Shown: positions 12,605 to 29,165 of the stretch, piece by piece
How positions within the stretch are numbered: position 1 is the first letter of the stretch
How the letters are laid out: each line of letters begins with the position of its first letter
Origin: Bacteroidales bacterium
GTDB taxonomy: Bacteria; Bacteroidota; Bacteroidia; Bacteroidales; UBA4417
Length of the DNA stretch: 42,586 bases
Direction: 5' to 3'
Assembly: GCA_035403045.1 (NCBI GenBank)
Contig: DAONEL010000003.1
Location: forward strand, 1 to 42,586
Notes under the pieces: model-generated
What the model was told of the DNA's origin: nothing
What the model saw: the letters and a program-made list of their open reading frames with translations, nothing else
Databases searched by the model: none
Position numbers and translations under genes: made by a program

Positions 12605-14809
12605 TTGAAAACTTCATCTCCGGACGATATACTCCTGAACAGGAGATCGCTCATACGCCAATACTATCGCAGGCTATACAAGTCAATTAAAGACCTGCCC
12701 GGCGAGCCTGATAAAATGCTTATCAGAAAGGCATTCTGTTTCCTTGCTTCTTCGCTGGAAAATGAAAGTAACGAAACATTTATCAGCACAATTTCACATT
12801 CCTGTTCGGTTGCCGTAACACTAAGCAGAGAGATGGAGATGCCGGTATCGAGCCTGCTTGCAGCACTGCTGCAGGATTGCGCAAAAAACGATCAGCAAAT
12901 GGCTGAGATCAGCAACCATTTTGCACCAGATATTGCAGGATTGATTTCTCAGTTAAACAGGATCTCCGGGTTGCACACTGAAAGGATATCTATCCAGGCT
13001 GAGAATTTCATTCAACTGGTACTAACCATAACCAATGACATCCGGGTAATCCTTATCCGCCTCGCCGACAGACTCATACTCATGCGCAACATCGATAATT
13101 TCCCGCTTGAGGAACAGCGCAAGATATCGATGGAAACTTTAAACCTCTATATTCCGCTAGCCCACAGGCTCGGTTTATATAAAATCAAAGCAGAACTTGA
13201 AGAACTTTCGATGCGGCATGTTTACCCCGAAATTTACAGGAGCATTGCCGATAAGATCGAACAATCAAAAGAATCACAGGCAAAATACATCGCTGAGTTT
13301 ATCAGGCCGATAGAGGAGGAATTGCAGAAAGGTCAGCATAAGTATTACATCAAATCCAGGACGAAATCCATTCCGTCGATCTGGAATAAGATGAAAACGC
13401 AGAACATTGATTTCGAGCAGGTATATGATATTTTCGCTATCCGTATCATCACTGATAGCAAGCCGGCTACCGAAAAGCACGATTGCTGGGAAGTATATTC
13501 TATCGTTACCAATATCTATAAACCAAATGCATCGCGCATGCGCGACTGGATATCATCACCCAAGAGCAGCGGATACGAATCACTGCATGCCACTGTAGCA
13601 GGTCCCGGTAATAAATGGGTAGAAGTACAGATCAGGTCAAAAAGAATGGATGAAGATGCAGAAAAAGGGCAGGCTGCACATTGGAAATACAAGTCGGATG
13701 CTCATGGTGAAAATGAAGCCGACCAGAGGTTACGCAATATCAGGTCGATACTCGAAAACTACAACTTATTTGATCCCGACTCGGAAAATGAAACCCAGAT
13801 ACAGCCTTTTGATAAACACGTTTATATTTTCACTCCTCAGGGTGACCTTAAGAAACTGCATACCGGGGCTACATTACTCGATTTTGCTTTTGAAGTTCAT
13901 ACTGATGTCGGACATCACTGCACCGGCGGCAAGGTCAACAAGACATTTGTCCCTTTAAAGCATGTACTGAAGACCGGTGACCTTGTTGAAGTGATCACAG
14001 CAAAGAATCAGCACCCTACAAAGGATTGGCTGAATATAGCCACAACTTCTAAAGCGCTGTCAAAGATCAAGCGACACCTCAAAGAAGAAGAGTTCCAGCA
14101 GGCTAACATTGGGCACGACATTCTTACAAGAAAGCTGAACCAACTAAAAATCAACAATATAGATGAAGCCATTCATAGGCTCGTGATATATTTCAAAGCT
14201 TCCAACTCTCTTGATCTCTATCATGATATTGCCACAGAACGCATTGATATACAAAAAATCAAAGATGTTCTGCTTGCTTCGACCAAACCTGAAGAGCCAA
14301 AAATCAATGAGAGACAGCCTGAAAAGAAGATTAAAAAGCCAGTGGCTTCACAATCGCAGGCGCTGGTAATCATCAATAATGAAACGCCCATGAGCGATGT
14401 AAAGCTGGCCCGATGCTGCCATCCTGTGCTGGGTGATGAAATTTTCGGGTTTGTTACCGTATCCGAAGGGATTAAGATACACCGGAAAGATTGTACCAAT
14501 GCTCACGAAATGCATACCCGGTACCTCTACCGCGTGTTGGAAGCGCGCTGGACCGATAATGCCGGGCTGAGCAATTTCCTGGCAACCATCAAAGTGACCG
14601 GAAACGACAGGGTAGGGATTCTCAGTTCAATCACTTCAGTACTTTCTGATGAACTGAATGCCAACACGCGCTCAATCAACATTGAGAGCAAAAACGGTAA
14701 ATTTGAAGGTATAATCACTATCAATGTTTCGGGAAAAAACCATCTCGAAATGATCATTGCCAGGCTTTTAAAGGTCAAAGACGTGAGCAGGGTCAGCAGG
14801 ATTAACTGA
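12605..14809 (+). CDS. relA: RelA/SpoT-family (p)ppGpp synthetase with degenerate hydrolase (HD) site
   Basis: 734-aa ORF with a TTG start at 12605; an alternative ATG lies at 12716. The synthetase core is intact (YDIFAIRIIT, GYESLHATV, VEVQIRSKRMDEDAEKGQAAHWKYK). TGS (VYIFTPQGDLKKL...GDLVEVIT) and a C-terminal ACT-like domain are present. The HD motif reads LLQDCAKN instead of LLHDxxED. Confidence 0.9.
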   Translation: MKTSSPDDILLNRRSLIRQYYRRLYKSIKDLPGEPDKMLIRKAFCFLASSLENESNETFISTISHSCSVAVTLSREMEMPVSSLLAALLQDCAKNDQQMAEISNHFAPDIAGLISQLNRISGLHTERISIQAENFIQLVLTITNDIRVILIRLADRLILMRNIDNFPLEEQRKISMETLNLYIPLAHRLGLYKIKAELEELSMRHVYPEIYRSIADKIEQSKESQAKYIAEFIRPIEEELQKGQHKYYIKSRTKSIPSIWNKMKTQNIDFEQVYDIFAIRIITDSKPATEKHDCWEVYSIVTNIYKPNASRMRDWISSPKSSGYESLHATVAGPGNKWVEVQIRSKRMDEDAEKGQAAHWKYKSDAHGENEADQRLRNIRSILENYNLFDPDSENETQIQPFDKHVYIFTPQGDLKKLHTGATLLDFAFEVHTDVGHHCTGGKVNKTFVPLKHVLKTGDLVEVITAKNQHPTKDWLNIATTSKALSKIKRHLKEEEFQQANIGHDILTRKLNQLKINNIDEAIHRLVIYFKASNSLDLYHDIATERIDIQKIKDVLLASTKPEEPKINERQPEKKIKKPVASQSQALVIINNETPMSDVKLARCCHPVLGDEIFGFVTVSEGIKIHRKDCTNAHEMHTRYLYRVLEARWTDNAGLSNFLATIKVTGNDRVGILSSITSVLSDELNANTRSINIESKNGKFEGIITINVSGKNHLEMIIARLLKVKDVSRVSRIN

Positions 14810-14932
14810 CGTAACCCTTTGCTCAGATATTCTCTCTGATTCACTGACCACTTTTAGTGTATTATTTTCCCATGGGAACAGTTGCCTGAGAATCTTTTGT
14901 TGCAGGTATGATTCTGAGAGAAAATATTTTTT

Positions 14933-14952
14933 CTCCTCTTTGAGGAGTTTTT
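14933..14952 (+). terminator. Candidate intrinsic terminator for the relA-like gene
   Basis: CTCCTC (14933-14938), loop TTT, GAGGAG (14942-14947), then TTTTT (14948-14952). It lies about 125 nt past the stop. The 3-nt loop is short. Confidence 0.4.
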
Positions 14953-15081
14953 CCGGGCTGCAAGAAGTGAATAAACTCCATGTCTTCCGGAATGAATGAA
15001 TGAAGTTGCCGATTCAAAACATTTCTACTGAGTGCCAGATGCTTATCAAGATATTGATATACAAGATGATACATTATAAAA

Positions 15082-15103
15082 GTTATTAACAATTGTTAAT
15101 AAC
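15082..15103. repeat. Perfect 22-bp palindrome GTTATTAACAATTGTTAATAAC (candidate operator)
   Basis: The two 11-nt halves are exact reverse complements. It sits in the ORF-free gap, immediately upstream of the candidate promoters of the putative ncRNA. Confidence 0.7.
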
Positions 15104-15115
15104 TCGCGTTAAAAC

Positions 15116-15174
15116 AATGTTTGGTTCTTTAGCTAAAAAAGCTTGACCCGGCCCCTCGTTTCGTTGTACTTTTA
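15116..15174 (+). promoter_or_regulatory. Candidate promoter region of the putative ncRNA (two one-mismatch -7 boxes)
   Basis: AATGTTTG (15116-15123) has a TTG 20 nt upstream, inside the palindrome (15093-15095). TACTTTTA (15167-15174) has a TTG at 15143-15145, 21 nt upstream. Each deviates from TAnnTTTG at one position. Confidence 0.3.
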
Positions 15175-15180
15175 ATTCAC

Positions 15181-15881
15181 CGGACACGATCATGGAGACC
15201 GGCCGCAAACCGGGAGAAAGAAGTTTCGAGAGGAACAACCGACGACCGGCAAACTGCAAAACCAGGAACAGAAATTCTGCAAAGAACAAACGGGACAGGC
15301 AATGCAGGAGGTCAGAGCAAAATAGCTGGTACGCAAGTACCGGTAACGTTGCAGGAGAACATAAGCACTTACGGGTGCTGAAATTCACCGCTCCATATCA
15401 GGAAGATCGACTCAGCGGCTGAAAGTACTGCTTCGCAAGAAGTAAATACCTGAAACCGCAACTGACAACCTGAAGAACCTTAACGGGAGAAACAGGGGAA
15501 ACAGCAAAAGAGTCGGGCAACACAGTGCACATGCGCTGGTTGTTTAATACACGGTACTTCCTTCGGGAAAAGACCGGTTGAAGATCTTCCGACCGCCGAG
15601 GATGACCTCAGAGGCAAAACTGCCGGACTTCGCAAGAAGCAGGGAAAGATGCCCCGGTGACAAACAAACAGGCAATTTCTGCAAGGAAAAATCCTGAGAG
15701 CGAGTCAGAGGTTGTTGATGTAAGCCGGACAACGAAAGTTATTCGGATTACACCAGATGAACAAAGGGTAAAACCTTTCTTCAGTCCCTCGCAATCGGCG
15801 TTCGGTCCGCTACAGCAGCTACGGTTGCTGTAAACGGAGGTGGGGAACCTTTCAGAATGGGAGGTTCTCCATCTTTTTTTT
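15181..15881 (+). ncRNA. Candidate large (about 0.7 kb) structured ncRNA of unassigned family
   Basis: Ten strong hairpins on the + strand. Seven are capped by GNRA or UNCG tetraloops: GCAA at 15333, 15435 and 15632; GAAA at 15734; UACG at 15370 and 15820; UUCG at 15562. Linkers are purine-rich. The element ends in an intrinsic terminator at 15842-15881. There is no credible ORF. The 5' end is uncertain (15130-15185). Confidence 0.6.
15842..15881 (+). terminator. Intrinsic terminator ending the putative ncRNA
   Basis: GGGGAACCT (15842-15850) pairs with AGGTTCTCC (15862-15870), 9 bp including one G-U. It is followed by ATC and T8 (15874-15881). Confidence 0.75.
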
Positions 15882-15969
15882 ATAGTATCCTGTTTATCAA
15901 TCCAATACTACTGAAGTCCCGCTCATTAAATTTTGATGATCCAGATAGCCAATAGCACTCAAATAACAG

Positions 15970-15977
15970 TACATTTG
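15970..15977 (+). promoter_or_regulatory. -7 box TACATTTG for trkA-trkH
   Basis: Exact TAnnTTTG, 30 nt upstream of the trkA ATG (16007) and downstream of the terminator at 15881. Confidence 0.55.
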
Positions 15978-16006
15978 CAGGTTTTAATTCCACTGCTGAC
16001 AATAAC

Positions 16007-16702
16007 ATGGCAACGAAAAAATATGCTGTAATTGGTATTGGTCAATTCGGAAAGGCGATAGCCAAAGTCCTGTCTTCCAAAGGATTTGAGGTTATGGCCA
16101 TTGACAATAATACTGAAGTTATCGATTCAATAGGAGAAGATGTAGCTTATGCTGTTGCACTTGATGCCACTGATAAAAAAGCATTACAATCTCAGAATAT
16201 CGCTGAATTTGATGCTGTTGTGGTTGCGATAGGTTCCGATTTTGAAAAAAGATTACTTTGCTCATCCATTCTGCTCGACTTGCAGGTTAAACGTATTATA
16301 ACCCGCGCCAATGGTGAAGCCCAGCGCATCATTCTTCAAAAGATGGGCATCACTGAAATACTGTCACCCGAAGAAGAAGTCGGCGTTATTGTTGCTGAGA
16401 GGCTCTCAAATCCAAGTATCGTCAGCTACCTTCAGCTTCCTGATGATTACCGTATCGCTGAAATTATTTCACCCAAGAACTGTATCAACAAAACTTTTGG
16501 TGAGATTGACCTCCGGGATAAGTATAAACTGAGCCTTATCACATTAAAAAAGGAAATAAAGTCAGTAAAAGGAGGAAAAGAACTGTCAGAGCACCATATT
16601 ATGGGAGTTCCTGATTCAAAACAGATTCTCGAAGCAACTGACCGGCTTCTCATATTTGGACACATTAAAGATATTGACCGTTTCCTTCAAATCAATACTT
16701 AA
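16007..16702 (+). CDS. trkA: Potassium uptake RCK-domain subunit (TrkA/KtrA type)
   Basis: 231-aa ORF. Rossmann motif VIGIGQFGKAIAKVL (TrkA-N) plus a C-terminal TrkA-C-like domain. Confidence 0.92.
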   Translation: MATKKYAVIGIGQFGKAIAKVLSSKGFEVMAIDNNTEVIDSIGEDVAYAVALDATDKKALQSQNIAEFDAVVVAIGSDFEKRLLCSSILLDLQVKRIITRANGEAQRIILQKMGITEILSPEEEVGVIVAERLSNPSIVSYLQLPDDYRIAEIISPKNCINKTFGEIDLRDKYKLSLITLKKEIKSVKGGKELSEHHIMGVPDSKQILEATDRLLIFGHIKDIDRFLQINT

Positions 16703-16717
16703 TATTCCAGGTTTACT

Positions 16718-18532
16718 ATGCCATCAACAAGAGTCGATAGGATCCGGGAATATATAAATATCCGCTTGTACCGGCATAAAGCCTATGTTATTGGCATCAT
16801 GCAAATACTCAGCGTGTTTATAGCGCTGATTGCTGTTTCATCAATTATCTATTACTATGGTTTCCCTAAAACGTCCAGGAGCTATGAGCTCAATTACTGG
16901 GTAATGGAAGGAAGCTTTATTTTCTATTTTGTTAAATTCATGGTGAAGATCTTTTATGATTTCCACCCGATAGATTTTATCAAGAACAACTTGTTTGAGG
17001 CACTTATAATGCTTAGCCTTCTGCTTGACGGGCTTGGGTTACTGCTGTTCAGGGAGCATATAGTTATACTCTTATTCAACCTCATAGGTCTGCCCAAACT
17101 TTCGGAATACTTTATCGTATTCGTCCAGCTGTACTTTTTCGTTTTCGTCGCTGTGGAAGTGGGTAAGGCCAGCGAACACTTATCAATGATCAGAGTAGGC
17201 CCGTCCGCTATGCTTGCATTATCGTTTATTGTACTCATACTCAGCGGTGCCGGATTGCTTTTCCTCCCTGAAATGACATTCAAAGGCATTTCTTTCCTTG
17301 ATGCACTCTTTACTTCAACCAGTGCTTGTTGCGTAACCGGACTTACCGTAGTTGACACCGCTAACTGTTTTACCATTAAAGGTCAGATAATCATAATGTT
17401 GCTTATCCAGCTTGGTGGTATAAACATTATCTCATTCGCTGCTTTTTTTGCGACATTCTCAAAAAGTTCAGCAGGGTTGAGATACCAATCACTGATGAAA
17501 GAAGTGGTAGCCACAAACCGGCTGAGTGATACACGTTCAATGTTGAGAAGAATCATTTTTTACAGTTTATTCATTGAACTCATCGGTGCACTCTTAATAT
17601 TTATTAACTGGCCGGCAGAGTTAACATTCAGTGGGAGAGGGGGTAAGCTGTTTTTTTCGCTTTTCCATTCAATTTCAGCATACAACAATGCCGGTTTTGC
17701 CTTATTCACCGACAATCTGTATGACGTAGGTGTGCGCCATGCCTATAATATTCAACTAATAATTGCTACACTTATATTCCTGGGAGGTATCGGGATCATG
17801 GTGCTGGAGGATATTTTCAGCCTTTCGCGAATACGCGAGCGCTCCCAGCTGAAATGGAAAAAGCTGGCTGTCCATTCTAAGGTTGCGCTTTACACTTCTT
17901 TTGCACTCATTCTGGCTGGAACTGTCGTTTTCTATGTCATCGAAAGGAATAATACAATCAAGGACTATGATTATTATGGTGCAATAGTTGCATCCATTTT
18001 TCAATCGGTTACCTGCAGGACAGCCGGCTTCAATTCGGTGGATTTTTCTCACCTGGGTCAACCGGTGTTAATGTTTATGATCTTTCTGATGTTTATCGGG
18101 GCTTCACCTGCATCCACCGGAGGTGGCATCAAAACAACCACATTTGCAACGATTGTAGCATCAGCCTATGCCACTATCAGGGGAAAGAAAAATGTAGAAA
18201 TGCTCAAACACACCGTCTCATTCGAATTAATTGATAAATCATATTCTATCGCACTATTCTCGGTCTCCCTGATATTTATCTCCACGTTTTTCCTATCGAT
18301 AACCGATAGCAACCAACCTTTCCTGAAATTAATCTTCGAAGAAGTATCGGCATTTGGTACTGTTGGACTTTCAACAGGGATTACACCGTTTCTCTCAAGT
18401 GCAGGCAAACTTATACTGATTGTCACGATGTATGTTGGAAGAATCGGAACACTTACTCTGGCGCTTGCATTGATGCGGAAAGTGAGTTATTCAAACTACA
18501 AATACGCGCAAATCTCACTTCTGGTTGGTTGA
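16718..18532 (+). CDS. trkH: TrkH/KtrB-family potassium transporter with an N-terminal extension of about 145 aa (4 TM)
   Basis: 604-aa ORF. The KtrB-like core starts near residue 158 (GPSAMLALSFIVLILSGAGLLFLP, TSACCVTGLTVVD, IQLGGINI, SAYNNAGFALF, TCRTAGFNSVD, GASPASTGGGIKTTT, SAFGTVGLSTG). The start is 16 nt after the trkA stop. Confidence 0.92.
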   Translation: MPSTRVDRIREYINIRLYRHKAYVIGIMQILSVFIALIAVSSIIYYYGFPKTSRSYELNYWVMEGSFIFYFVKFMVKIFYDFHPIDFIKNNLFEALIMLSLLLDGLGLLLFREHIVILLFNLIGLPKLSEYFIVFVQLYFFVFVAVEVGKASEHLSMIRVGPSAMLALSFIVLILSGAGLLFLPEMTFKGISFLDALFTSTSACCVTGLTVVDTANCFTIKGQIIIMLLIQLGGINIISFAAFFATFSKSSAGLRYQSLMKEVVATNRLSDTRSMLRRIIFYSLFIELIGALLIFINWPAELTFSGRGGKLFFSLFHSISAYNNAGFALFTDNLYDVGVRHAYNIQLIIATLIFLGGIGIMVLEDIFSLSRIRERSQLKWKKLAVHSKVALYTSFALILAGTVVFYVIERNNTIKDYDYYGAIVASIFQSVTCRTAGFNSVDFSHLGQPVLMFMIFLMFIGASPASTGGGIKTTTFATIVASAYATIRGKKNVEMLKHTVSFELIDKSYSIALFSVSLIFISTFFLSITDSNQPFLKLIFEEVSAFGTVGLSTGITPFLSSAGKLILIVTMYVGRIGTLTLALALMRKVSYSNYKYAQISLLVG

Positions 18533-18550
18533 TTATCAATCACACAAAAT

Positions 18551-18582
18551 AAAAAAAAGAAGCCGAGTCGGCTTCTTTTTTT
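18551..18582. terminator. Bidirectional intrinsic terminator after trkH
   Basis: A8 run, GAAGCCG (18559-18565), loop AGT, CGGCTTC (18569-18575), then T7 (18576-18582). Confidence 0.75.
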
Positions 18583-18712
18583 ATGGCTGTTTTTTAATTA
18601 ATAAATCGATATTATTGTTGCTAAAATGAACAACGGGACTAAAGTACAATGATTTGGTTCGATTCTTAGTTTTTATTTGTTAAAAGATGTTAAGGAATTG
18701 CATGGATACTGA

Positions 18713-19039
18713 TCAGTCATCCCTTTCGCGATCGTTTTCCTGTTCTTTCTCTTCTTCGTTGCCTGCTTCTTCCGTCTCCTTCATATCAACTGATTCTGCA
18801 AAGAAATCCTCATCATCTTTATCAGATTTCTGATCAATCTTAACAGGTACTTTAATCAGGTAACTTATTTCATCGGTATCAAGGGTGATTGCATGGAAAT
18901 ATGAATCACCGGCACCCTTGACTTTAATCATATGATTTACCCATCCGAGCGGGTATTTTTTAAGAATGGCCTCTTTCAATTCGGCTGTTAGATTCTGATA
19001 ACTAACAATCAGTTTCTTCTTCGCAGTCTGATTACTCAT
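18713..19039 (-). CDS. Hypothetical protein with acidic C-terminal tail
   Basis: 108-aa ORF. A minus-strand exact TAnnTTTG box lies at 19068-19075. The C-terminus is Glu/Asp-rich (EEAGNEEEKEQENDRERDD). I do not recognise a family. Confidence 0.6.
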   Translation of the reverse strand: MSNQTAKKKLIVSYQNLTAELKEAILKKYPLGWVNHMIKVKGAGDSYFHAITLDTDEISYLIKVPVKIDQKSDKDDEDFFAESVDMKETEEAGNEEEKEQENDRERDD

Positions 19040-19067
19040 GTTTCAATCAATTTTCGGGGCAATTATA

Positions 19068-19075
19068 CAAAAGTA
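19068..19075 (-). promoter_or_regulatory. -7 box TACTTTTG for the 108-aa ORF
   Basis: The forward strand reads CAAAAGTA, an exact TAnnTTTG on the minus strand 29 nt upstream of the start at 19039. Confidence 0.45.
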
Positions 19076-19127
19076 TTTTTGAAAACAATAAGGTTTTTTG
19101 TTAATTCATTTTAAATAGAGCAGAAAT

Positions 19128-26289: not shown

Positions 26290-26498
26290 TTCGTAATAAT
26301 CACATTATTAATCACTTATGTTCATTCGAACAATTGTACGAAGGTAATCATTTTAATGATATGAGCTAGTTTTATTTGCAGTCGTTTTATGCCATCTTAC
26401 TAACATTCACGTGTTAAAAAGACTATGGCATATTAATTGATCAGGTCGTAGATTGAAAGTAATTTTGAAACTGTAAACATATCTGCCTGTTTTAGTGC

Positions 26499-26561: not shown

Positions 26562-29165
26562 ATGGAAGCTAAATTTTCACAAAGGGTAAAAGACGTACTG
26601 TCATTCAGCCGGGAAGCTGCGGTGATGCTGGGAAACGATTATATAGGTGTTGAACATCTTTTCCTTGGCATCCTCCGTGAAGGCGAAGGCCTGGCCATCA
26701 GGATACTGAATTATATGAATGTTGACCTTGCAGAGGTCAGGAAAAGCATTGAAACAACAATTGTTAACAGGTCAAAGAAAGTTGATCTGAATGATTTGAA
26801 GAACCTGCCATTGGCAAAACAAGCTGAAAGAGCCCTCAAATTGACCTATCTCGAAGCAAAGCTTTTCAATAGTGAACTTATCGGCACCGAACATCTTTTA
26901 TTGGCAATACTCAAAGATGAAGACAACATTGTAACGCGGTCATTATTGAAATACGGTATTGATTATGAGCTTGTTAAAGAGGAGGTGAAATCTTATCTCG
27001 TATCACGTGACGAAGACATCATTCGTGAGCAGGATAATTCACAGAAGAGTGACAGCAGCGAATTCAGGGATGAATTACCCGGTGGTGCACAGGATGAAGA
27101 TTCTGACGAAGGTTCGCCTTTTGGTACCGGTAAAAAAGTTGCTGACAGTAAATCAAAAACGCCTGTCCTCGACAATTTTGGCCGCGACCTTACCCGTGCT
27201 GCTGAAGAAAACCGCCTCGACCCGATAGTCGGGAGAGAGAAAGAACTTGAACGTATTTCTCAAATCCTCAGCCGCCGCAAAAAGAACAATCCAATCCTTA
27301 TTGGTGAACCAGGTGTTGGTAAATCAGCAATAGCTGAAGGCCTGGCGCTTCGTATTACTCAACGAAAGGTATCACGTGCGCTGTTTAACAAAAGAGTCTT
27401 TACACTGGATCTGGCATCTCTCGTTGCCGGTACTAAGTATCGTGGTCAGTTTGAGGAACGCATGAAAGCTGTGCTCAATGAGCTTGAGAAGAACCGTGAT
27501 ATCATCCTGTTTATTGATGAAATACACACGATTGTAGGTGCAGGAAATGCTTCCGGTTCGCTTGATGCGTCCAATATGTTCAAACCTGCACTCGCCCGCG
27601 GCGAAATTCAGTGCATTGGGGCTACCACATTAGATGAATACAGGCAGTACATTGAGAAAGACGGAGCCCTGGAACGTCGATTCCAGAAAGTGCTGGTCGA
27701 TCCTACCAGCAGCGAGGAAACGATTGAAATACTTAACCAGATCAAGGAAAAGTACGAAGATCACCACCTGGTAAAATATGATGATGAGGCAATTGATGCA
27801 TGTGTATCATTAACAAACCGTTATGTGACCGACCGTTGCCTTCCTGACAAGGCCATTGACGCTTTGGATGAAGCCGGTGCCAGGGTTCATATTTCCAATA
27901 TGCATGTGCCGGTTGAAATCGTGAACATTGAAGCACAGATAGAAGAGGTAAAACAGCGGAAAATGAAGGCCATTAAGGCCCAGAAATTTGAAGAAGCCGC
28001 TAATTACAGGGATTCAGAGCGCCGCTTGCAGAATGAACTGGAGATGGCAAAACGCAGGTGGGAAGATGAATCGAAGATAAACCGCGAAACCGTGACCGCC
28101 GAGAATGTTGCCGAAGTGGTTGCCATGATGACAGGAGTTCCTGTTCAGCGTATCGCCCAGAATGAAAGCGACAGGCTATTGAACATGGAAAAGGAATTGG
28201 GCGGTTCGGTGATTGGACAGGATGAAGCTATCAAAAAAGTTGTAAAAGCCATACGACGCAACCGGGCTGGGCTCAAAGACCCGAACAAACCTATCGGAAC
28301 CTTTATTTTCCTGGGACCCACAGGAGTCGGAAAAACACATCTTGCCAAAGTTCTGGCAAAATACCTGTTCGATTCGGAAGACACGCTGGTAAGAATTGAC
28401 ATGAGTGAGTACATGGAGAAATTTGCCGTATCAAGGCTTGTCGGAGCACCTCCGGGATATGTTGGCTATGAAGAAGGCGGTCAACTGACAGAGAAAGTTC
28501 GTCGCAGGCCATATTCCATCGTACTTCTTGATGAGATTGAAAAGGCACATCCTGACATTTTCCACATACTGCTGCAGGTGCTTGACGATGGTGTGCTCAC
28601 CGACAGTCTTGGACGTAAAGTCGATTTTAAGAACACTATTGTCATCATGACCTCAAACATCGGGTCAAGGCAATTAAAGGATTTCGGTTCAGGGGTTGGA
28701 TTCTCCACAACAGCCAGGCAATCACAGTGGTCGAGCCAGGCGCAGGGTGTGATAGAAAACGCCCTTAAGAAGACATTTGCACCGGAATTCCTGAACAGGA
28801 TTGACGATATAGTGATCTTCGAGTCGCTTGGTCGTGATGATATTCATAAGATCATCGATATAGAACTCAGGCATCTTTTCGACAGAATCCGCAAAATGGG
28901 ATATCAGCCGCAGGTAACCGATGCAGCAAAGGATTTCATTCTCGACCGTGGCTGGGACGAACAGTTTGGTGCACGTCCGCTCAAACGCGCAATCCAGAAA
29001 TATATTGAAGATACGCTTGCTGAAGAAATTATTAAATCAACGCTTAAAGAAGGCGATACGATTCTGGTTGACTATGAGAAAGATGCCAGCGAATTAGCCA
29101 TCAAAGTGCTTCCGTCAGCTAAACTCGAAATCCCACCGGTTACCGGCGAATCAGTAACAGGCTAA
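26562..29165 (+). CDS. clpC: AAA+ Clp/Hsp100 ATPase, ClpC-type
   Basis: 867-aa ORF. Two Clp_N repeats, Walker A motifs GEPGVGKS and GPTGVGKT, a UVR-like motif ([16 protein letters not shown]) and a short middle domain. Confidence 0.93.

What the first reader, a model, noticed from the sequence alone, without database searches (positions are those of the whole stretch)
15082..15890. Candidate stand-alone large (about 0.7 kb) structured ncRNA between relA-like and trkA, rich in GNRA/UNCG-capped hairpins
The gap from 14810 to 16006 has no credible ORF. The track ORFs there are short, overlap each other on both strands, or are Arg/Lys/Asn-rich translations of purine-rich sequence. Read on the + strand, the region holds an unusually dense series of well-paired hairpins. 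(1) GCUGGUAC[GCAA]GUACCGGU, 15325-15344. (2) AGCACU[UACG]GGUGCU, 15364-15379. (3) GUAcUGCUUC[GCAA]GAAGUAaaUAC, 15425-15449. (4) CGGUaCUUCC[UUCG]GGAAaaGACCG, 15552-15576. (5) GCC-GAGG[AUGA]CCUC-aga-GGC, 15595-15615. (6) CUGccggaCUUC[GCAA]GAAGCAG, 15620-15642. (7) CAGG..AUUUC[UGCAAG]GAAA..CCUG, 15669-15696. (8) CCGGACAAC[GAAA]GUUAUUCGG, 15725-15746. (9) GAAcAAAGG[GUAAAA]CCUUUcUUC, 15759-15782. (10) CAGCAGC[UACG]GUUGCUG, 15813-15830. Seven of the ten are capped by the stable GNRA or UNCG tetraloops typical of large folded RNAs. These loops read correctly only on the + strand. The linkers are A/G-rich; for example, GAAACAG occurs twice, at 15489-15495 and 15498-15504. CUUCGCAAGAAG occurs twice, at 15431 and 15628. 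A 7-bp long-range pairing is possible between UCACCGG (15177-15183) and CCGGUGA (15654-15660), and a competing near-copy UCACCG lies at 15385-15390. The element ends in a clean intrinsic terminator (15842-15881). trkA then has its own exact TAnnTTTG box at 15970-15977, so this looks like a self-contained transcript rather than just a trkA leader. I do not see the conserved cores of RNase P, tmRNA, 6S, SRP RNA, group I/II introns or any riboswitch class I know. I cannot tell by eye whether it belongs to GOLLD, ROOL or another large ornate class.
Basis: seen in the sequence. Interest (0 to 1): 0.86.

Follow-up and report, generated by a model that had tools for sequence, protein, structure and literature searches.

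The report
New large structured RNA gene, Lentimicrobiaceae
The gap between relA and trkA holds a real, independently transcribed, roughly 700-base folded non-coding RNA from a previously undescribed family confined to one group of anaerobic Bacteroidales; large RNAs of this kind with unknown function are rare.

Summary
All ten hairpins and the terminator are at the stated coordinates. The region is non-coding, and Rfam 15 gives no match. Homologues occur in about 50 lineages of Lentimicrobiaceae-like Bacteroidales, in two size classes: about 700 nt (the window's group) and about 890 nt. Covariation is strong. A structure derived from 14 genomes was tested on 16 other metagenome sequences: 94.8% of cells pair against 31-41% in slid controls, and 67 pairs show compensatory change. 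Loop identity (59% GNRA, 10% UNCG), G-U pairs and the terminator all point to the + strand. The unit runs from an invariant 24-bp palindrome (15081-15104), through a Bacteroidetes-type promoter, to an RNA from about 15176 to 15881. The invariant 5' end, UCACCGGAC..GAUCAUGG, pairs with distant segments and closes the molecule. It is not a trkA leader, because in relatives other genes follow it and trkA keeps its own promoter. In all relatives except the window and L001, a 157-aa gene predicted to form a tandem OB fold sits directly upstream at a fixed distance. Function is unknown. My best guess is a trans-acting RNA scaffold or ribonucleoprotein under operator control.

The parts
15081..15104 (.). 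Perfect 24-bp palindrome AGTTATTAACAATTGTTAATAACT, a candidate operator or activator site. It is DNA-level and not part of the RNA.
   Evidence: The core AACAATTGTT is invariant. Its centre lies exactly 90 bp before CACCGGAC in every locus. There are no indels from -150 to +25 in 46 distinct sequences. The arm mismatch in group B (TTATTAAC/GTTCATAA) is not compensated, so this is not an RNA hairpin.
15142..15174 (+). Promoter-like element: CTTGAC (-33-like, 15142-15147), a 19-nt gap (21 nt from the end of TTG to TA), then TACTTTTA (-7-like TAnnTTTx, 15167-15174).
   Evidence: Both boxes and their spacing are conserved in all homologues. The match to the Bacteroidetes TTTG/TAnnTTTG promoter type rests on established knowledge. 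The transcription start is inferred, not mapped.
15176..15881 (+). The RNA itself, about 700 nt (group A of the family). The 5' end is known to within about 5 nt.
   Evidence: nhmmer finds full-length matches in L001, L002, L003 and L186. The consensus has 170 pairs, 54 of them with compensatory change, across five lineages. No period-3 signal. There is a single copy in the window.
15177..15195 (+). 5' segment UCACCGGACACGAUCAUGG. It is the only stretch whose primary sequence is conserved between the 700-nt and 890-nt groups.
   Evidence: k-mer census and alignments.
15180..15190 (+). 5' strand of the closing helix P1: CCGGAC pairs with GUUCGG (15800-15805), and CGAU pairs with AUCG (15794-15797).
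   Evidence: Group B has the equivalent CCGG(A)CG/CGCCGG. In the divergent L187 the helix is kept by a shifted bulge.
15794..15805 (+). 3' strand of the closing helix P1.
15193..15197 (+). UGGAG, which pairs with CUCCA at 15391-15395 (helix P2).
   Evidence: 25 of 25 cells pair, with one G-C to A-U compensatory change. The group-B counterpart GAUC.UG/CA.GAUC shows a C-G to U-A change in L187.
15401..15407 (+). GGAAGAU, which pairs with AUCUUCC at 15584-15590. This long-range helix encloses a central domain.
   Evidence: 34 of 35 cells pair, with a U-A to A-U change in L002.
15812..15831 (+).
   Evidence: 38 of 40 cells pair, and 3 pairs have compensatory change. It is also present in group B.
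15838..15881 (+). Intrinsic terminator: a 16-bp stem (15838-15853/15859-15874) followed by a run of eight T (15874-15881).
   Evidence: It is conserved, with compensatory changes. It always lies 692-701 nt (group A) or 885-892 nt (group B) after CACCGGAC.
15970..15977 (+). Context, not part of the RNA: trkA's own -7 box, TACATTTG.
   Evidence: GTAAATTTGC lies 33-39 nt before the trkA ATG in relatives. This includes genomes where the RNA is not upstream of trkA.

Best explanation
The region is a stand-alone gene for a large, highly folded non-coding RNA. The RNA is about 700 nt long (about 15176-15881, + strand) and belongs to a previously undescribed family limited to a clade of Lentimicrobiaceae-like Bacteroidales.

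Shown here:
- The RNA has its own conserved promoter-like boxes and a strong intrinsic terminator.
- It is non-coding.
- It folds into about 30 helices (about 48 in the 890-nt form), most capped by GNRA or UNCG tetraloops.
- Its invariant 5' end pairs with two distant segments, so the molecule is closed by a 5'-3' helix next to the terminator.
- It is as conserved as the neighbouring TrkA gene.
- It travels with relA/spoT and a 157-aa gene, not with trkA.

Inferred:
- The RNA acts in trans as a compact tertiary scaffold. The many GNRA loops would make intramolecular or intermolecular A-minor or receptor contacts.
- In most lineages it works as a ribonucleoprotein with the adjacent 157-aa protein, which is predicted to be a tandem OB fold.
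- Its synthesis is controlled by a factor that binds the invariant palindrome 90 bp upstream.
- Its fixed place behind the (p)ppGpp synthetase/hydrolase gene suggests a role in starvation or stress physiology.

The biochemical activity is not known.
For: Family and boundaries: 18 genome loci and 36 metagenome loci share the 5' motif, and the terminator sits at a constant distance.

Structure:
- Group B has 221 consensus pairs, 67 of them compensatory.
- The same structure counted on other sequences gives 94.8% paired against 31-41% in slid controls, and 187 cells with a change on both sides against 20-47. No shuffle out of 500 reached the observed value.
- The 63%-identical L187 keeps 172 of 207 pairs, with 34 changes on both sides.
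- Group A has 170 pairs, 54 of them compensatory.

Strand: on the + strand 59% of hairpin loops are GNRA and 10% UNCG, against almost none on the - strand. G-U cells make up 8-11% against 2% for A-C.

Non-coding: no period-3 signal. Stop-free frames on the - strand shift between relatives. The ORF starting at the 5' ATG runs 8-96 aa and lacks its start codon in one lineage (L004).

Independence from trkA.

Promoter and operator: fixed 90-bp spacing and no indels.

Protein partner: the ORF157 start codon is at -616/-617 in every group-B locus. It is present in every locus fetched through ORF157 whose sequence reaches downstream of the gene. AF2 gives pLDDT 84.6 with two OB barrels. Foldseek matches Teb1, HIN-200, RNase II/R and exosome S1.

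Not mobile: absent from the viral, phage and plasmid collections.
Against: - No transcript data were available. The transcription start, the 3' end and the abundance are inferred from sequence only.
- The window and its nearest relative L001 lack ORF157, with no remnant left. Their RNAs still show compensatory changes. So the adjacent protein is dispensable, relocated, or replaced by another protein.
- Larger relatives of ORF157 (about 300 aa, two modules) occur widely in Bacteroidales with no RNA beside them. The fold is therefore not specific to this RNA.
- OB folds also bind DNA or small ligands (ModE/ModG appear among the matches).
- Several long-range helices differ between consensus runs and remain uncertain.
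- Only the two ends are alignable between the two size classes.
Confidence: 0.6

Rival explanations
1. A protein-independent RNA machine. The RNA works alone, either as a homo-oligomeric assembly like ROOL or GOLLD or as a ribozyme. ORF157 would be only a neighbour.
For: The RNA persists under structural selection in the window and in L001 without ORF157. The GNRA density is very high, at 10-11 of 18 hairpin loops. Such loops mediate the RNA-RNA contacts seen in ROOL, GOLLD and OLE assemblies (PMC12286853).
Against: ORF157 sits at a fixed distance in about 50 other lineages. No self-cleavage or multimer data exist. There is no match to any ribozyme or ornate-RNA model.
Confidence: 0.25
2. Not an independent gene. 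It would be the structured 3' part of a relA-ORF157 operon transcript, for example a processed 3' UTR-derived RNA. The conserved upstream block would then serve another purpose.
For: It has the same orientation as relA and ORF157 and lies immediately downstream of them in all loci. No strong terminator was seen between ORF157 and the RNA in relatives, but I did not examine this systematically.
Against: -33/-7-like boxes are invariant at fixed spacing just before the invariant 5' segment. In the window, a terminator-like hairpin follows relA at 14933-14947. The spacer at 14810-15050 is poorly conserved against L001, whereas conservation rises from the palindrome onward.
Confidence: 0.08
3. A long cis-regulatory leader, such as a riboswitch or attenuator, for the ktrA/trkA-trkH potassium uptake genes. 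This would be comparable to c-di-AMP riboswitches upstream of ktr genes.
For: In the window and in most relatives it lies directly upstream of trkA on the same strand and ends in a terminator.
Against: In L014 a convergent GH92 gene lies between the RNA and trkA. In two complete genomes the RNA is followed by an ABC transporter gene or by endonuclease III, while trkA sits elsewhere behind an ECF sigma gene. trkA always has its own -7 box. There is no ydaO-yuaA match, even at E <= 10.
Confidence: 0.03
4. Protein-coding sequence or a decayed gene, on either strand. Candidates are the 76-aa + strand ORF at 15192-15422 and the long stop-free frames on the - strand.
For: Stop-free frames of 160-250 codons occur on the - strand in some relatives. 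An ATG lies within the invariant 5' segment.
Against: No period-3 substitution signal, whereas it is strong in the neighbouring genes. The frames differ in phase and position between relatives, and their translations are Cys/Phe/Ser/Leu/Arg-rich junk. The 5' ORF varies from 8 to 96 aa and lacks its ATG in L004. No Pfam match.
Confidence: 0.01

Closest known systems
OLE RNA (Rfam RF01071) and its OapA/OapB/OapC ribonucleoprotein
   Same: It is a large, ornate, multi-helix bacterial ncRNA of unknown biochemical function found in anaerobes, with functionally important GNRA tetraloops. OLE works with a small beta-barrel protein, OapB, which reads the shape of a GNRA loop with a Gly-Arg loop tip (PMC7936274). 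ORF157 is predicted to be all-beta-barrel, and it has an invariant N-C-T-G-R loop between two strands.
   Different: There is no match to the OLE model, even at E <= 10. The host is Bacteroidota, not Bacillota. No oapA-like membrane protein gene lies beside it. ORF157 is a tandem OB fold, not a KOW/SBB protein. This is a resemblance in kind only.
ROOL (RF03087) and GOLLD (RF01998) RNAs
   Same: The size range is 600-900 nt, with many helices carrying covariation and no known function. GNRA-rich RNAs of this sort build homo-oligomeric cages (PMC12286853).
   Different: There is no model match. It is chromosomal, in fixed housekeeping synteny after relA. It is not found in viral contigs, phage records or plasmids, and no tRNA genes are nearby. 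From my own knowledge, ROOL and GOLLD are often prophage- or tRNA-associated.
c-di-AMP riboswitch (ydaO-yuaA, RF00379) upstream of ktr/kdp potassium transport genes
   Same: In the window it lies upstream of a ktrA/trkA-trkH operon and ends in a terminator.
   Different: It is five times larger and has no model match. It is followed by unrelated genes in several relatives, and trkA has its own promoter.
RNase P RNA and tmRNA (housekeeping RNAs closed by a 5'-3' helix)
   Same: The 5' and 3' ends pair to close the molecule, and the gene has its own promoter and terminator.
   Different: No conserved cores are present. There is no Rfam match, and ARAGORN finds no tmRNA. The taxonomic range is narrow, which does not fit a universal housekeeping RNA.

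Membership tests
OLE RNA (RF01071) | Match to the family covariance model | tested here: not met
   cmscan at gathering score and at E <= 10 gives no OLE hit for the window 14700-16100 or for L009 4800-6000.
OLE RNA (RF01071) | Gene neighbourhood with oapA (a small multi-pass membrane protein) | tested here: not met
   The neighbours are relA/spoT, ORF157 (soluble, all-beta) and trkA or other genes.
ROOL (RF03087) / GOLLD (RF01998) | Match to the family covariance model | tested here: not met
   No hit at E <= 10.
ROOL (RF03087) / GOLLD (RF01998) | Frequent prophage or tRNA-cluster context | tested here: not met
   All 80 viral-contig pattern hits were chance matches. No match in phages or plasmids. 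No tRNA in the window. Chromosomal synteny is fixed.
ROOL (RF03087) / GOLLD (RF01998) | Homo-oligomeric quaternary assembly | not testable with these tools
   This needs cryo-EM, SEC-MALS or mass photometry.
c-di-AMP riboswitch ydaO-yuaA (RF00379), or any cis-acting leader of trkA | Model match, and a constant position directly upstream of the regulated gene | tested here: not met
   No hit. The downstream gene varies: GH92, ABC transporter or endonuclease III. trkA has its own -7 box.
RNase P RNA, tmRNA, 6S, SRP RNA, group I/II introns | Match to the Rfam models; for tmRNA, also a tag reading frame and a tRNA-like domain | tested here: not met
   ARAGORN finds nothing.
Large ornate bacterial ncRNA (a descriptive category, not a homologous family) | More than 500 nt, non-coding, many helices supported by covariation, conserved across species | tested here: met
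   700-890 nt. 170-221 consensus pairs with 54-67 compensatory. Cross-validated on other sequences. No coding signal.
Independent transcription unit | Own promoter and own terminator | tested here: inconclusive
   -33/-7-like boxes and the intrinsic terminator are conserved at fixed distances. No transcript ends were available to confirm them.

The most novel reading that the evidence does not exclude
This would be a new class of large ornate bacterial RNA, the first of its size described for Bacteroidota. It would form a dedicated ribonucleoprotein, or an RNA-only higher-order assembly or ribozyme. It would be switched on through its own operator and act in the starvation or stress circuitry around the RelA/SpoT enzyme. 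Its partner would be a previously unannotated family of tandem-OB proteins.
Probability: 0.3. Interest if true: 0.9.

Novelty: categorically new. Interest (0 to 1): 0.8.

Why it matters
Bacterial non-coding RNAs longer than about 500 nt with elaborate conserved folds are very few: ribosomal RNAs, group II introns, OLE, GOLLD, ROOL and HEARO. Each has revealed either unusual biochemistry or unexpected architecture.

This family adds a 700-890 nt RNA with 30-48 helices and an exceptional density of GNRA loops. It comes from a phylum where no comparable RNA is described. The gene boundaries are clean, there is a candidate operator, and there is a candidate protein partner, so it can be tested directly. 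Suitable tests are a Northern blot or RNA-seq, binding assays and cryo-EM.

The work also exposes an unannotated tandem-OB protein family that is widespread in Bacteroidales.

One limitation tempers the interest. The known range is a single clade of uncultured or little-studied anaerobes, and nothing yet indicates what the RNA does.

Tried and rejected
- Rfam 15 at gathering score on the whole window, and at E <= 10 on the region and on a group-B homologue. This gave only chance hits such as ctRNA_pND324 on the terminator hairpin and snoRNA or miRNA models.
- Coding hypotheses. These were the + strand ORF at 15192-15422, the ORF starting at the invariant ATG, and the long stop-free frames on the - strand. 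I rejected all three on periodicity, frame inconsistency and variable length.
- The trkA-leader hypothesis, rejected on synteny.
- Phage or plasmid origin. The viral pattern scan returned 80 chance matches, and BLAST against the phage and plasmid collections found nothing.
- A remnant of ORF157 in the window spacer (14810-15080) or anywhere else in the 42.6-kb window. None was found with hmmsearch --max.
- ORF157 annotation by Pfam, NCBIfam and PDB sequence search. Nothing was found. Only fold comparison gave a signal.
- Whether the 300-aa double-module relatives of ORF157 sit beside large RNAs in other Bacteroidales. They do not, in the three loci examined.
- The palindrome as an RNA hairpin, rejected because its arm asymmetry is not compensated.
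- A second ACAATTGT-type site upstream of the clpB-like gene. Its frequency is near chance.
- mafft-qinsi structure-aware alignment was unavailable.
- Literature searches found no description of this RNA.
Full report
**Observation.** The gap between a RelA/SpoT gene (12605-14809) and a ktrA/trkA-trkH pair (16007-18532) was confirmed by ORF listing and Pfam. From 15150 to 15800 the G+C content rises to 0.48-0.51, against 0.34-0.40 in the flanks, and there is a strong A-over-T skew on the + strand. The + strand folds to -243.9 kcal/mol, compared with -207 +/- 8 for shuffles (z -4.7). The - strand is similar (z -5.1), so energy alone does not identify the strand. Rfam 15 returns nothing at gathering score for the whole window. 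At E <= 10 it returns only chance hits for the region.

**Homologues.** A scan of species-representative genomes with TrkA returned 58 loci, which place the window in Lentimicrobiaceae-like Bacteroidales. nhmmer found full-length homologues in L001, L002 and L003. In 14 further loci it found a conserved 5' part of about 180 nt, and there the gap is about 1.15 kb. Every one of these loci contains the motif CACCGGAC(R)(M)GATCAT. A conserved intrinsic terminator lies either 692-701 nt or 885-892 nt downstream of it. The family therefore has a 700-nt form (group A, which includes the window) and an 890-nt form (group B). A metagenome scan for TTTANNTCACCGGACNNGATCAT gave 43 loci. Thirty-six are true members of one of the two groups, and seven are chance matches inside unrelated sequence, about the number expected. 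Look-ups through the neighbouring protein added a fifth group-A lineage (L186) and a divergent group-B lineage (L187, 63% identical to L009).

**It is an RNA, read on the + strand.**
- RNAalifold on 14 group-B genome sequences predicts 221 pairs, 67 of them with compensatory changes.
- I projected that structure onto 16 other metagenome sequences, with L009 as the coordinate reference. There, 94.8% of cells pair, against 31-41% when partners are slid by 1-3 columns. Sixty-seven pairs and 187 cells have changes on both sides, against 16-32 pairs and 20-47 cells in the slid controls. No shuffle out of 500 reached any observed measure.
- L187 keeps 172 of 207 pairs, with 34 changes on both sides.
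- For the window's own group, five lineages give 170 pairs, 54 of them compensatory.
On the five lineages they score 85% paired against 39-51%, and 25 covarying pairs against 6-14.
- In the consensus structures, 59% of hairpin-loop instances are GNRA and 10% UNCG on the + strand, against none or one on the - strand. G-U cells (8-11%) far outnumber A-C cells (2%).

**It is not coding.** Column variability shows no period-3 signal in the RNA (power 0.01, p = 0.96). The same loci give 18.3 for the upstream ORF and 81.7 for TrkA. The RNA is nearly as conserved as TrkA (mean column entropy 0.48 against 0.42) and much more conserved than the upstream ORF (0.84). Long stop-free frames on the - strand in some relatives initially looked worrying. 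They fall in different frames and positions from one sequence to the next, and their translations are low-complexity junk. The ATG inside the invariant 5' segment opens frames of 8 to 96 codons and is missing in one lineage (L004).

**Anatomy in the window.** Conservation begins at a perfect 24-bp palindrome, AGTTATTAACAATTGTTAATAACT (15081-15104). Its centre is exactly 90 bp before CACCGGAC in every locus. From -150 to +25 there is not one indel among 46 distinct sequences. Downstream come CTTGAC (15142-15147) and TACTTTTA (15167-15174). Their spacing fits the Bacteroidetes -33/-7 promoter type as I know it. This places the start of the RNA near 15176, which is an inference. In group B one arm of the palindrome is asymmetric and the other arm does not compensate. 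It is therefore a DNA site, most simply an operator or activator site, and not an RNA hairpin.

The first 19 nt of the RNA (15177-15195) are the only primary sequence shared by both size classes. They form long-range helices:
- CCGGAC pairs with GUUCGG (15800-15805).
- CGAU pairs with AUCG (15794-15797).
- UGGAG (15193-15197) pairs with CUCCA (15391-15395).

Group B has the equivalent pairings. In L187 one of them changes from C-G to U-A, and the closing helix is kept by a shifted bulge. A further long-range helix, GGAAGAU/AUCUUCC (15401-15407/15584-15590), encloses a central domain. The molecule ends with a UACG hairpin (15812-15831) and the terminator (15838-15881). Some long-range helices differ between the four-sequence and five-sequence consensus runs, for example the partner of GAGG at 15598-15601. 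These should be treated as provisional.

The loop-proximal stems of hairpins 1 and 6-10 and of the terminator show compensatory changes. Hairpins 2-5 are kept mostly by conservation or by one-sided changes. The outer extensions of hairpins 3, 4 and 6 are not conserved. The proposed UCACCGG/CCGGUGA pairing is broken in L002, L003 and L186.

**Context.** The order NUDIX, ClpS, M48 peptidase, (NfeD, FloA), RelA/SpoT, a 151-161-aa ORF ("ORF157"), RNA is constant. In group B the ORF157 start codon is at -616 or -617 relative to CACCGGAC in every locus.

The gene after the RNA is usually trkA. In L014 it is a convergent GH92 gene. In two complete genomes it is an ABC transporter gene or endonuclease III, and trkA lies elsewhere behind an ECF sigma gene. 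trkA carries its own conserved -7 box, GTAAATTTGC, wherever it is. The RNA is therefore not a trkA leader.

The window and its closest relative L001 are the only members without ORF157, and no remnant is left. The spacer at 14810-15050 is poorly conserved between them, while the RNA is 78-96% identical. The two RNAs also differ by compensatory changes, so the RNA has stayed under selection without the adjacent gene.

**ORF157.** Pfam, NCBIfam and PDB sequence searches give no hit. A profile search finds 160 clusters, all annotated as hypothetical. AlphaFold2 on a 47-sequence alignment gives a confident model (pLDDT 84.6) of two beta-barrels. Each has a helix between strands 3 and 4, which is the OB-fold pattern. 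Foldseek against the PDB matches tandem-OB or S1-type nucleic-acid binders: Teb1 AB, HIN-200 domains, RNase II/R and exosome S1 subunits. It also matches the di-Mop domains of ModE/ModG.

The module belongs to a much larger unannotated family. There are 407 representatives at 50% clustering, most of them about 300 aa with two modules, from Bacteroidales and related MAGs. Three such genes lie in unrelated contexts with no large gap beside them. The RNA linkage is thus specific to the single-module form.

An invariant N-C-T-G-R loop lies between two strands of the first barrel. OapB, the small beta-barrel partner of OLE RNA, inserts a Gly-Arg loop tip into a GNRA tetraloop (PMC7936274). This is a lead, not a test.

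**Interpretation.**
- Shown: a new, non-coding, highly structured, + strand RNA family with its own promoter-like and terminator signals, in fixed synteny after relA-ORF157, chromosomal and single-copy.
- Inferred: it acts in trans as a compact scaffold. It probably works with an OB-fold protein in most lineages. It is controlled through the palindrome and is plausibly connected with stress or starvation physiology, given its fixed place beside the (p)ppGpp enzyme gene.
- Alternatives I cannot separate: an RNA-only assembly or a ribozyme.
- Minor alternative: a processed operon 3' end.

**Comparison with known systems.** In kind it resembles OLE, ROOL and GOLLD: large, ornate, rich in GNRA loops and of unknown function. 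It fails every membership test I could run. None of their models match, and none of their contexts fit. No paper in the searchable library describes it. I therefore class it as a new family. As caveats, its known range is one clade, no expression data were available, and its function is unknown.

Noticed in passing
Loci L002-L029, L139-L190, directly upstream of the RNA (for example L005:4367-4840). Absent from the window.: A conserved 151-161-aa gene lies between relA and the RNA. It has no Pfam, NCBIfam or PDB sequence match. It is predicted to be a tandem OB fold, with an invariant N-C-T-G-R loop and conserved aromatic residues. The window and L001 have lost it without trace.
   Followed up: yes
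Proteins P0121-P0370; loci L191-L193: The ORF157 module defines a large unannotated protein family. There are 407 representatives at 50% identity, most of them about 300 aa with two modules (four predicted OB barrels). They are spread over Bacteroidales, Bacteroidota and 'Chlorobi' MAGs in varied gene contexts, and none has a described function.
   Followed up: partly
window 26329-26340: A near-palindrome, GAACAATTGTAC, lies in the divergent intergenic region upstream of a clpB-like ORF (26562-29165). It shares the ACAATTGT core of the RNA's upstream palindrome. A third copy, at 26757, is inside that ORF. Three copies in 42.6 kb is close to the chance expectation.
   Followed up: partly
window 14933-14947: A terminator-like hairpin, CTCCTCTTTGAGGAG followed by TTTTT, lies about 125 nt after the relA stop. 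It sits in the poorly conserved spacer left where relatives carry ORF157.
   Followed up: no
window 15970-15977 and the equivalent positions in L001-L031: trkA has a strongly conserved -7 box, (G)TAAATTTGC, 33-39 nt before its start codon in nearly all relatives, whatever lies upstream.
   Followed up: yes
RNA region, - strand, in L001, L003, L016, L024, L025, L153, L169 and others: Stop-free frames of 160-250 codons occur on the antisense strand of the RNA. They are longer than simple base composition predicts, but their frame and position are inconsistent between relatives. They probably result from the purine-rich, structured sense strand. Automatic gene callers could annotate them as spurious genes; one 64-aa call already overlaps the element in L182.
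   Followed up: partly
L182, L184, L185 (complete genomes) compared with the window: In some relatives an NfeD-FloA (flotillin) gene pair is inserted between the M48 peptidase gene and relA. In these genomes trkA-trkH has moved away and sits behind an ECF sigma factor gene.
   Followed up: no
window 18533-19127: A 596-nt gap with no long ORF lies between trkH and the convergent alpha-amylase-family gene. I did not examine it for conservation or structure.
   Followed up: no
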